DNA of 64,000 bases from Carcharhinus amblyrhynchos (Eukaryota), in contig OZ336886.1 in assembly GCA_965287045.1 (NCBI GenBank), positions 29,760,001 through 29,824,000 on the forward strand, given 5' to 3'. Positions 3,256 through 6,350 of the stretch are shown here, piece by piece. The stretch's first letter is position 1, and each line of letters opens with the position of its first letter. The notes under the pieces were generated by a model. It was given only the letters and a program-made list of their open reading frames with translations. It was not told the DNA's origin and made no database searches. A program made the position numbers and the translations under genes.

Positions 3256-3983
3256 CTGTGATCTTACGAAACTACAAGAAAGCGCAATCACTTCACAGCT
3301 TGGATCTCTAACCAACCCAGAATATTTGTGTATATATAGCTCAAGACAAAGCAATCATTTCCATCTTGAAGATATGTCAATCCCTATTTACATTTTATTC
3401 TGGATATAGGGAATGACAATATGCAACTACAATTGGCACTAGTTACTTTTTAAATGGAAAATAGATCCTCAAAAGCATGTAAACAATTAAATACTGTAAC
3501 AAGTAGCAATCCAGCATGTTTAATCTGTAAATCAAGCAAATGAAAAGTTAACAGGAGCATTTCCTGTTCCAGTGATAAAAAATGCACTCCCTCCAACACA
3601 ATCCAAACAGGTACACAGTCCAGTTATCCAAGTACAGAAAACCTAGCTGCAAATTGGCAACAGCAAAGGTTCAGGGAATTCACAAGTCTGCAGACAATTA
3701 CTTGCCTGTATTTGCAAACTAAAACAGTACAGTTTACCAGCAGAGAACACAGGTAAACGTGTCCAATTAGGACTACCTTGATTGGTTGGAGCTCAGCGGG
3801 AAGCATCCTAAGCCCAGGGAAAGTCTACTTTTCCAGGTACCATTAAAGAGCTGTGCAGCCAGGTGCATCATCTTTGACCATGCACTGTCATGAATGTGCT
3901 AGCAGATTAAAAGCCACCAGCATTTTAAAAGATCTAAGTAACGAGATTAGCAGTGCAGACAGACCAAAAGAGTATATCATTCT

Positions 3984-4092
3984 TTGATAAAGCTTTGACA
4001 AAGGGTCATCTGGATTCGAAACGTCAGCCCTTTTCTCTCCTTATAGATGGTGAAGACCTGCTGAGATTTTCCAGCATTTTCTCTTTTGGTGG
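3984..4092 (+). mobile_element. Short Penelope-like (pLTR) insert with minimal hammerhead motif and 14-bp TSD
   Basis: gagtatatcattct is duplicated at 3970-3983 and 4093-4106. Hammerhead-like core at 3992-4028. Confidence 0.7.
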
Positions 4093-4140
4093 GAGTATAT
4101 CATTCTGCTAACAAGAAACACTTTGGGTAGATGACTGCAC

Positions 4141-4750
4141 TACCCAGGGATGACATACATTAGATTTTTTTTAGAACAGAAGCTGAGGGAACAGACAGTC
4201 AAACATATAGACACAATCTTCAAAGGGAAACAATGATATAATTGGCAACATTTCTATGAAAGCAGGGGGCAGATTCCATATAACTGCCTGAGGGGTAGAT
4301 TTTCCTACTAGCAGCCTGTAAACTGGTTCCAGCTAGCAGACCAGAAGCAAGAGTGCAGAAACCTTTGTGAAGACAGTTAAAACCATATCTTCATTGAACC
4401 AAGAAGTGACGTTCTCCAGAGTAACTCGTCAATTGTATACAGTGTGGAAACTATAAGCTGGCCTTTATTTATTGATCTATTGAATTGGACATTGTTTGAG
4501 AAGAGGGAATTCCTTAAAGAATTCATGTAAATGTCCTTTGGAACAAAAAGGGCAATTTCCACTTAACATATGTTTAGTAGTTTGTATGTAACTGTCTTCG
4601 ATCATTATAGTCCTGATCGTATATGTGTATTTTCTTTATTGCAATAAATGGCTTTCAATAAATGTTATACGATTGGGCTGGTTACTGTTACTGTTACTAG
4701 GTATCGCATACGTCTCCTCACACCATTCCTGTGAATAAAATGTAGACACA
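4141..4750. mobile_element. Possible decayed solo LTR
   Basis: gcac flanks both ends, termini TA...CA, clustered AATAAA at 4643-4740. Weak evidence. Confidence 0.25.
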
Positions 4751-4899
4751 GCACTGATACCAAGTCAAATTTATGTTAAGTTTCTTTTAAAGCTCTTTAA
4801 CAAAGAGAATTCTCATCAGTTTCATAAACTGAAATTAACCAGCAGGATTTTCAGTCTAATCTGTTTATCGAACATCAGCCATGATCAAATTGCCTCAGA

Positions 4900-5047: not shown

Positions 5048-6350
5048 TGTCAGGAAGCAGAGACAGTTTTAAGTTTTATGTTTGCATTATTAGATGATAG
5101 AAATAAGGCATAAATTTAAGTGAGTTTAATTCAATGTTTATATGGGAAAGGATTAAAACTTTAGTTAGATTCATGCTAAACAAAGGTGTTTGCATTTATG
5201 GGGGTTTTGGTTTCATTTTAAACTGTGTCTGTATTGCTTAGAGAGTTAATGAGATGAAAAGCCAACAAGAATAAAGGAGGATGAGGCTGCCAGTTAGAAA
5301 GACCTTTTGAGAATTTTTTTTTAAACTGGACTCAAAGCAATTGGAGCTCAGGAGCAGGAGAGGAAATAGTTCTGAGCTCTGCCAGAAGCAGGACAATGGA
5401 GTAATGGGAAGAAAGCACTCCAGAAACTAAAGAACAGGCAGTTCTAGAAACCAGGGAATGAAAAGTTTAAGGAAAACTGAAACTAAAGGGACAAAGAAAC
5501 TAGAAACTGGACAAAGGTACAGTTCATCCAAATTAAAGAATGGGGCAGAGGGAAGCTCCCAGTTAAAAACTGGATGTGGAGTTGCTGGTGTTGGACTGGG
5601 GTAGGCATGGTATGAAGTCTCAACTCCAGGTTAAATTCCAAAAGGTTTATTTGGTAGCATGAGCTTTCGGAGTGTTGCCCCTTCATCAGTTAAGTGGGCA
5701 ATACTCCGAAAGCTCATGCTACCAAACATGTTGGACTTTAACCTGGTGTTGAGAGTTAAGGCCAGTGCTAAAAAGAGCAGACATGGCAACGTTGGCTAGC
5801 AAGAAACCAGATGGCTGAAGCAATCCAAAGGTTGCTGACCCTGGTACAGCCTGTGAAGCAGTAGTGTTCTGCGAGTGAGGCTGGGTACCTGAGTTTGTGT
5901 AGAAGCTTGAATGCATGCAATAATTCAAAGCAAAGGAATAATGAGAGTTGGAAATCCTGGAAGTGAATTGGCTGTGGGAAAGCATTGTTTGGATGGCAAT
6001 TCTAATACAGTGGTGGGCAGCTTGGGGGCCAAATATGGCCCATCTGGGTTCTGAGTGCAGCCCATGAGAAATTTTGTTGACCACTGCCCACATGCAGGGT
6101 TGCCACATTCTGCTAATTTTCAGACAGTAAACGTTTCTACTAGTGTGAATGAAGAGATATGCACGTAAAGCAAGTGCATGCGAAGCAAGGAACATGCTGA
6201 TCACACACAACATTGACAGTGAGAGCTCTGCTTCCAAAATGTAAATATTTTGTTTTTAACCGTTTAAAGTTGATGATAGTTCAATTAATATATAAATGAA
6301 ATAGCATATCCATTATGAAATATTCAGTTTGTATTAAATGTATCATATTT
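5048..6350. mobile_element. LTR-like interspersed repeat, right boundary uncertain
   Basis: Starts TGTCAGG like the 21363 element and abruptly truncates the Deu-SINE. Confidence 0.35.
5574..5754. mobile_element. Penelope-like inverted pLTR fragment forming a long hairpin, with a hammerhead core on the minus strand
   Basis: 31-bp arms at 5650-5680 and 5696-5726 with one mismatch. The 5' part resembles 33721-33770. The minus strand reads CTGATGAAGGGGCAACACTCCGAAAGCTC. Confidence 0.7.

What the first reader, a model, noticed from the sequence alone, without database searches (positions are those of the whole stretch)
3970..4106. TSD-flanked 109-bp insert carrying a minimal hammerhead ribozyme with a U3-A8 compensatory core
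Seen: a perfect 14-bp TSD. The + strand folds as stem I GCU (3992-94)/AGC (4026-28), core UUGACAA (3995-4001), one extra A, stem II GGGUC/GAUUC, then GAA-ACGU-C with a GUC triplet at 4023-4025. Known: hammerhead C3 and G8 pair in the active fold, and Penelope-associated minimal hammerheads replace stem III with a palindrome and cleave as dimers. Inference: C3U together with G8A is covariation rather than decay, so this may be a distinct non-autonomous ribozyme-carrying retroelement family.
Basis: partly seen in the sequence, partly recalled or inferred. Interest (0 to 1): 0.7.

Follow-up and report, generated by a model that had tools for sequence, protein, structure and literature searches.

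The report
Penelope retroelement fragment with U-A hammerhead
The insert is one of thousands of short copies of a Penelope-like jumping gene whose whole subfamily carries a hammerhead ribozyme motif with a swapped U-A core pair already reported in other animals; this lone, slightly damaged copy is likely inactive.

Summary
In detail: an exact 14-bp TSD (a related target occurs once in empty paralogous sites) and a minimal hammerhead motif with U3/A8. U3-A8 is the subfamily state, not decay: genome-wide exact counts are U3A8 3556, C3G8 2088, C3A8 1294 (mostly CpG decay of a sister subfamily), U3G8 246; a tree on sequence outside the ribozyme separates the subfamilies (100/98). The 'distinct non-autonomous family' is not supported: the same segment caps ~3.3-kb Penelope-like elements (RT motifs, Cx4Cx2C linker, C-terminal GIY-YIG; Neptune type; host likely a cartilaginous fish). 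U3-A8 in Penelope hammerheads was published in 2014 (Schistosoma), and this scan noted it on other DNA three times. New detail: 18 of 30 copies picked without regard to the ribozyme begin at its 5' edge, 30 nt below a TATA box, not at the cleavage site, and 3' ends fall at two sites (the known 'tail'). Short copies are likely run-off cDNAs from uncleaved RNA. The window copy lacks a partner in 64 kb and has weakened stems; cleavage and expression were not tested. Verdict: new member of a known kind; interest 0.22.

The parts
3970..3983 (+). Left target-site duplication (14 bp)
   Evidence: Exact direct repeat; related target present once in empty paralogues of the host repeat
3984..3990 (+). 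7 extra bases at the 5' junction, likely a slipped repeat of the first bases of the ribozyme core
   Evidence: Outside the alignment to most copies; similar short repeats at the junction in L018, L022, L026, L041; origin inferred
3991..4090 (+). Head segment of a Neptune-type Penelope-like element (from the first base of ribozyme stem I to the short 3' end, about +97), about 5% diverged from its subfamily
   Evidence: 92-94% identity to the best of 40 scored copies, 3054 first-look candidates; same segment at both ends of ~3.3-kb units L192, L195; divergence 0.053
3991..4029 (+). Minimal type I hammerhead motif: stem I 3991/2-3994 with 4026-4028/9, core U3(3995)...A8(4000) A9, extra A, stem II 4003-4007/4013-4017, GAA, palindromic ACGU, predicted cleavage after C4025
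   Evidence: Sequence; per-position comparison with 30 U3A8 and 28 C3G8 copies; matches the min-HHR features in PMC4209133; cleavage not tested
4091..4092 (+). Two junction bases (GG) not part of the element's usual sequence
   Evidence: Alignments to most copies end at query base 107 = 4090
4093..4106 (+). Right target-site duplication (14 bp)
3885..4760 (.). Older, unclassified host repeat into which the element inserted (about 75% identity to its paralogues)

Best explanation
The insert is a short, TSD-flanked copy of the head of a Penelope-like retroelement subfamily whose copies carry U3-A8 in the hammerhead core, and it was likely made when the element's reverse transcriptase started about 100 nt inside its own uncleaved RNA and ran off the RNA's 5' end. 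Shown: membership in the high-copy subfamily, the link to ~3.3-kb RT + GIY-YIG units, U3-A8 as the subfamily state, clustering of 5' ends at the first bases of stem I, two preferred 3' ends (~+97, ~+132), a TATA match 30 nt upstream in long copies. Inferred: (1) the pLTR TATA promoter starts RNA at the A of AGCU, so the ribozyme occupies the first 35 nt of the transcript and recurs near its 3' end; (2) the protein nicks AT-rich DNA (14-bp stagger here) and primes cDNA at one of two internal sites, as shown in vitro for the anole element PAc; priming at the 5' copy of the site gives 100-135-bp inserts such as this one, priming at the 3' copy gives long inserts; (3) U3-A8 arose in the master lineage, probably as G8A by CpG deamination at C7-G8 plus a compensating C3U, and was kept because the 3-8 pair is needed for a dimer- or protein-assisted cleavage; (4) this copy, with no promoter, no partner ribozyme in the window and two weakened stems, is likely inert.
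For: High copy number (2537 exact matches to a 36-nt window stretch). [quoted passage not shown] L192 and L195 carry the ribozyme segment at both ends of a 3.1-3.3-kb unit. Core counts U3A8 3556, C3G8 2088, C3A8 1294, U3G8 246. With the subfamily's stem II fixed and 3/7/8 free, 90 of the first 100 listed of 759 are U3A8 (counted by eye). In 30 copies picked on downstream sequence only, 15 of the 16 with both positions readable are U3A8, none C3 or G8. Tree on +36..+100 (53 of 59 rows): 28 U3A8 copies including the window against 24 C3G8 + 1 U3A8, support 100/98. 94 of the first 100 C3A8 matches have C7 and most have the sister's loop II, and about 55 of the first 100 C3G8 have T7: symmetric CpG decay (by eye). 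U3A8 copies are younger (0.049 vs 0.089 from own majority, 26 vs 23 rows, p=0.001). 5' ends in the unbiased 30: 18 at -8..+11, 6 long, 6 at +33..+55, none at +12..+32 (P about 1e-10 under a constant truncation rate); near-full-length L190 and L191 start at the same base. TA[TC]AAA lies at exactly -30 in 24 of the 28 U3A8 cores that have one in the 50 nt upstream, and in two sister copies with different spacer sequence. 3' ends: 13 at +94..+110, 17 at +130..+133. PAc initiates RT at two internal sites that define the tail, and uses unprocessed RNA (PMC11167929).
Against: No RNA data: transcription start, expression and cleavage are untested. Pfam did not recognise the RT fragments (0 families for 3 RT-region pieces), NCBIfam gave only a weak hit and no solved structure matched; RT identity rests on motifs and on one homologue carrying PF00078. 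The sequence just upstream of the clustered 5' ends also reads as a splice acceptor (pyrimidine tract + YAG). 2-3 of 30 copies do begin near the cleavage site (+33, +33, +37). U3-A8 is a single event in the master lineage, so the large counts are not independent support for selection; the direction C3G8 to U3A8 rests on relative age, not on a rooted tree. All long copies seen are decayed. Modelled folding favours a helix that pairs the core with the cleavage site over the active-like fold by 1-2.6 kcal/mol in copies with an intact ACGU.
Confidence: 0.8

Rival explanations
1. A separate non-autonomous (SINE- or retrozyme-like) master of 100-135 nt, derived from the pLTR, makes the short copies.
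For: Most copies are short with sharply shared ends; PLE-derived non-autonomous retrozymes are reported in vertebrates including one chondrichthyan (bioRxiv 10.64898/2026.07.22.740005).
Against: Short and ORF-bearing copies share the same U3A8 segment and the same two 3' ends; near-full-length copies start at the same base as short ones; short copies lack the upstream TATA; the window copy is single, not a tandem array. A tree of short against long copies was not built.
Confidence: 0.12
2. U3-A8 is a fixed but functionless pair of transitions: the ribozyme was dead in this master, which spread without it.
For: Both changes are transitions, one at a CpG; one sister-type copy (L125) reached U3A8 by decay alone. 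Catalytic mutants did not impair PAc insertion in vitro (PMC11167929) and HHR-less Naiads thrive (PMC8557442). Most inserts here come from RNA that still spans the cleavage site.
Against: Apart from two CpG-decay positions, the subfamily differences inside the 39-nt motif are 3, 8, two loop II bases, N17 (U/C) and 1.1 (U-G to U-A pair): none breaks an invariant base or a stem (the invariant core and 5' strand of stem II were fixed by the search pattern, so only the free positions test this). U3-A8 hammerheads were reported active in vitro (PMC3088659, citing a paper not held).
Confidence: 0.2
3. The clustered 5' ends mark a splice acceptor or an RT stall at the ribozyme rather than a transcription start.
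For: Both subfamilies have a pyrimidine tract + YAG right at the cluster; in D. virilis Penelope the intron's 3' end maps to the 5' end of helix I (PMC4209133).
Against: Target DNA or TSD abuts the cluster directly in several copies and no shared upstream exon is seen; a stall would be expected on the 3' side of the hairpin, where no ends fall (+12..+32 empty); TATA spacing is fixed at -30.
Confidence: 0.2
4. U3/A8 is random decay of this one copy from CUGANGA.
For: Such double decay occurs (L125).
Against: The window copy groups with the U3A8 subfamily on independent sequence and matches its majority at both positions.
Confidence: 0.01

Closest known systems
U3-A8 minimal hammerheads in the pLTRs of Cercyon Penelope-like elements of Schistosoma mansoni (Cervera & de la Pena 2014, PMC4209133)
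   Same: U3-A8 in place of C3-G8; no helix III, palindromic 15.2-16.2; extra base between 9 and 10.1; G10.1-C11.1; short helix I; mostly single motifs from truncated elements, some in opposite orientation nearby
   Different: Vertebrate host (likely a cartilaginous fish) and Neptune-type ORF; helix II of 5 bp rather than 7-8; a close, older C3-G8 sister subfamily coexists in the same genome
Neptune-clade EN+ Penelope-like elements (Craig et al. 2021, PMC8557442)
   Same: Single ORF with RT and C-terminal GIY-YIG, CCHH-type finger, CX2-5CxxC linker, pLTR with hammerhead, 5' truncation, partial tandems, inverted 5' copies, optional 30-40-bp tail
   Different: Clade assigned from the linker motif only (shared with Nematis), no reference tree; insertion here is not in a microsatellite and has a clear TSD
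PAc (Poseidon element of Anolis carolinensis; Frangieh et al. 2024, PMC11167929)
   Same: Hammerhead at the pLTR-ORF junction; two internal RT start sites about 100-135 nt downstream that would give the two 3' ends; AT-rich target; uncleaved RNA as template
   Different: Different clade; canonical C3-G8 core in PAc; here the evidence is genomic only
Non-LTR retrozymes (bioRxiv 10.64898/2026.07.22.740005)
   Same: PLE pLTR-related short sequences with type I hammerheads
   Different: Retrozymes are defined as tandem arrays with two or more ribozymes; this copy is a dispersed single insert with a TSD

Membership tests
EN+ Penelope-like element (parent of the insert) | ORF with RT domain | tested here: met
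   RT motifs in order in L192, L193, L069, L072; a homologue carries PF00078; Pfam scan of the decayed fragments themselves was blank
EN+ Penelope-like element (parent of the insert) | C-terminal GIY-YIG endonuclease with two cysteines between GIY and YIG | tested here: met
   PF01541 E 1.5e-4, just under the curated cut-off; YCIRCSQCGLLYIGET-type motif in 10 of 15 loci scanned
EN+ Penelope-like element (parent of the insert) | pLTRs from partial tandems, inverted 5' copies, optional 30-40-bp tail | tested here: met
   L192, L195 partial tandems; inverted piece within 200 nt upstream in 14 of 30 U3A8 loci; 3' ends 35 nt apart
Neptune clade | CX2-5CxxC linker between RT and EN | tested here: met
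   12 of 15 loci; definition from PMC8557442; also present in Nematis
Neptune clade | RT phylogeny groups with Neptune references | not tested
   No reference set at hand
PLE minimal hammerhead (Cervera 2014) | Core boxes with C3-G8 or U3-A8, extra base after 9, G10.1-C11.1, palindromic 15.2-16.2, helices I and II | tested here: met
   features
PLE minimal hammerhead (Cervera 2014) | Self-cleavage as dimer or with protein | not testable with these tools
   Needs a bench assay; cofolding does not model the active dimer
Rfam hammerhead families | Covariance-model hit | tested here: not met
   No hammerhead hit at E<=10; expected for a motif without helix III (inference)
Non-LTR retrozyme | Tandem repeat with at least two ribozyme-bearing units | tested here: not met
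   Single copy in the 64-kb window; definition; tandem arrays elsewhere in the genome were not searched
Distinct non-autonomous family | Own master sequence separate from ORF-bearing copies | tested here: inconclusive
   Same segment and ends as ORF-bearing copies; no short-versus-long tree built

The most novel reading that the evidence does not exclude
In this shark-like genome a young Neptune subfamily fixed a U3-A8 hammerhead next to an older C3-G8 sister, and thousands of 100-135-bp inserts are complete run-off cDNAs between the element's two internal RT start sites and a TATA-driven start at the first base of the ribozyme. That would be a genome-scale record that uncleaved RNA is the integration template although the ribozyme core stays under selection, which points to a role for cleavage outside integration (decapping, circularisation or limiting the element's own RNA).
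Probability: 0.45. Interest if true: 0.45.

Novelty: new member of a known kind. Interest (0 to 1): 0.22.

Why it matters
The insert itself is an ordinary dead fragment. The subfamily pair is a convenient natural test of an open point: why Penelope-like elements keep hammerheads although catalytic mutants insert normally in vitro (PMC11167929) and some clades lack them (PMC8557442). A compensatory swap fixed in a successful lineage argues for selection on the active fold, and the end distribution suggests the template is uncleaved RNA. It also shows that descriptor searches with CUGANGA alone would miss the larger and younger of the two subfamilies in this genome (3556 against 2088 exact matches).

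Tried and rejected
Rfam scan: no hammerhead hit. Folding z-scores 0.21-1.10: no signal. No RNA holder listed, so nothing on expression; DNA contigs of four runs were laid: contigs from two coded organisms run from the left flank into the insert, so the insertion looks shared; coverage in the third stops short and is uninformative; the absence of variant rows at 3995/4000 was not used, because the table also lacks the known difference at 4015. Pfam/NCBIfam/PDB searches of RT fragments were blank or weak. First labelled Poseidon-type in my notes; changed to Neptune-type after the linker motif was checked. The idea that two cDNAs anneal through the AGCT palindrome to give head-to-head pairs explains few cases: 4 of 99 distinct cores have an in-register palindrome, although nearby inverted pieces are common. 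The end mapping missed minus-strand loci and was redone; its insert-query set is biased toward copies that include stem I. No TSD was found for the whole L192 unit. Lunse et al. (PMC5785218) and Przybilski & Hammann 2007 (PMC1986816) are not held: only their titles were seen in reference lists; either may already list U3-A8 variants from fishes or give rates.

Full report
Observation. The 14-bp direct repeat is exact and the motif lies at the stated coordinates. The insert interrupts an older repeat; 10 of 11 fetched paralogues cover the site without an insert, most with one recognisable copy of the target, so this is a true target-site duplication (chance about 3e-6). Rfam finds no hammerhead and folding energy is unremarkable; the case for a ribozyme motif comes from the core letters and the family.

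What it belongs to. The window lies on contig C17 of a 2.9-Gb genome, and the insert has thousands of relatives (3054 first-look candidates, 40 scored, 92-94% identity; 2537 exact matches to one 36-nt stretch); it is the only copy in the 64-kb window. Some copies run upstream into a decayed ORF. Walking to the 5' end gave units with the ribozyme segment at both ends: L192 (about 3.3 kb between the two ribozymes) and L195 (about 3.1 kb). The ORF shows the LSKGLSF, ADKG, MDVQSLY, GVAMG, YIDD and LPFLDL motifs (motif names recalled; positions), a Cx4Cx2C-type linker in 12 of 15 loci and a GIY-YIG region with internal CxxC in 10 of 15 (PF01541 at E 1.5e-4 and 0.0018 in 2 of 6 fragments). By Craig et al. 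2021 (PMC8557442; Introduction and passages read) this is an EN+ Penelope-like element with the linker of the Neptune and Nematis clades; I call it Neptune-type without a reference tree. The three best named homologues are from whale shark, a stingray and zebra shark (51-52% identity; 6 hits among 384 candidates), so the host is likely a cartilaginous fish.

Is U3-A8 decay or covariation? Exact genome-wide counts in front of the same stem II arm: U3A8 3556, C3G8 2088, C3A8 1294, U3G8 246; reversed-pattern controls 3-6 each (odds ratio 23, but copies are not independent events). With this subfamily's stem II fixed, 90 of the first 100 listed of 759 matches are U3A8 (counted by eye). Among 30 copies chosen only on sequence downstream of the ribozyme, 16 have both positions readable and 15 are U3A8; 14 are truncated or gapped there. 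A tree on +36..+100 (53 of 59 rows; 6 dropped because they do not continue into the element) splits 28 U3A8 rows including the window from 24 C3G8 rows plus one U3A8 row, support 100/98, on few columns. The C3A8 class is mostly CpG decay of the sister: 94 of the first 100 have C7 and most have the sister's loop, mirrored by T7 in about 55 of the first 100 C3G8 (by eye). The U3A8 subfamily is younger (0.049 against 0.089; rows with indels in the motif, poor continuation or long branches left out). Other differences between the subfamilies inside the motif are in loop II, N17 and a U-G to U-A change in stem I. So U3-A8 is a real lineage state; that it was selected is an inference from one event.

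How the short copy arose. Numbering U3 as +1, the 30 unbiased copies have 5' ends at -8..+11 (18), at +33..+55 (6) or far upstream (6), none at +12..+32; 3' ends fall at +94..+110 (13) or +130..+133 (17) (some of the 30 are two halves of one inverted insertion). A constant truncation rate cannot give this cluster (P about 1e-10). Near-full-length L190 and L191 start at the same adenine, and a TATA match sits exactly 30 nt above it in 24 of the 28 U3A8 cores that have one within 50 nt, and in two sister copies. Frangieh et al. 2024 (PMC11167929; parts 1-2 of 4 read) showed that a purified Penelope protein starts reverse transcription at two internal sites that define the genomic tail, that ribozyme mutants insert normally, and that the ribozyme cleaves only with protein. 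The simplest reading is that 100-135-bp inserts are complete copies from an internal start site to the 5' end of uncleaved RNA; the window copy used the proximal site. A TATA/Inr-like arrangement in pLTRs was noted for rotifer elements (PMC3846280, passages), whereas D. virilis Penelope has a TATA-less internal promoter (PMC2377424, passages). A splice acceptor at the same place is the main rival. No RNA evidence was available.

This copy. It differs from its subfamily by about 5%, including 4015 (G-U in stem II) and 4029 (outer stem I pair lost); modelled stem II pairing falls to 0.40 from 0.99, and to 0 in the 100-nt context. It has no upstream TATA and no partner in the window. It is likely inert unless a host transcript and a trans partner are supplied.

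Comparison with print. Cervera & de la Pena 2014 (PMC4209133; parts 1-2 of 4 read, one supplement file searched, file 1 not searchable) report U3-A8 minimal hammerheads in Schistosoma Penelope elements (about 1,300 hits), minimal hammerheads in fish Xena, Poseidon and Neptune elements, and low dimer activity. Perreault 2011 (PMC3088659, passages) reports natural U3-A8 cores and cites in vitro activity. A 2026 preprint (abstract, methods, first part of results; supplements not seen) derives animal retrozymes from pLTRs and includes one chondrichthyan. Searches returned no paper describing a U3-A8 hammerhead in a shark element or the 5'-end clustering, but two key papers are not held and Repbase/Dfam were not available. 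PMC6765202, PMC6155905 and PMC2920678 were seen as passages only and added nothing beyond references. This scan's own notes hold three similar findings in other genomes (none by sequence); they agree but are not independent evidence.

Verdict. Observation confirmed; covariation supported; separate non-autonomous family not supported. New member of a known kind, interest 0.22. The part worth pursuing is the subfamily pair and its end distribution, not this copy.

Noticed in passing
window ~3885-4760: Older unclassified repeat (about 75% identity among paralogues, 371 first-look candidates) that hosts the insertion; no informative ORF seen in three paralogues.
   Followed up: partly
L080-L109 (first 30 C3G8 matches on contig C1): Older sister subfamily with canonical C3-G8 core, GUU cleavage triplet and U-G first pair in stem I; same 5' clustering, same two 3' ends, TATA at -30 in L090 and L096. 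Its ORF was not retrieved.
   Followed up: partly
L190:1222-5300 and L191:1240-3465 (reverse-complemented / plus orientation): Near-full-length units that start at the stem I adenine, are preceded by a short inverted tail piece and end by joining to a second short head copy without the 3' UTR; looks like template jumping.
   Followed up: no
window 3995-3999 with 4023-4027: The core (UUGAC) can pair with the cleavage-site strand (GUCAG); this inactive helix is predicted in both subfamilies and could keep monomers uncleaved.
   Followed up: partly
window 4030-4046 region and L191:1240-1450: Pyrimidine tracts ending in CAG occur about 20 and 70 nt downstream of the cleavage site and again further in; possible splice acceptors or ORF start, not resolved.
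   Followed up: no
window 5615-5757: A 143-bp self-inverted (palindromic) stretch, 80% identity, seen in the window self-comparison.
   Followed up: no
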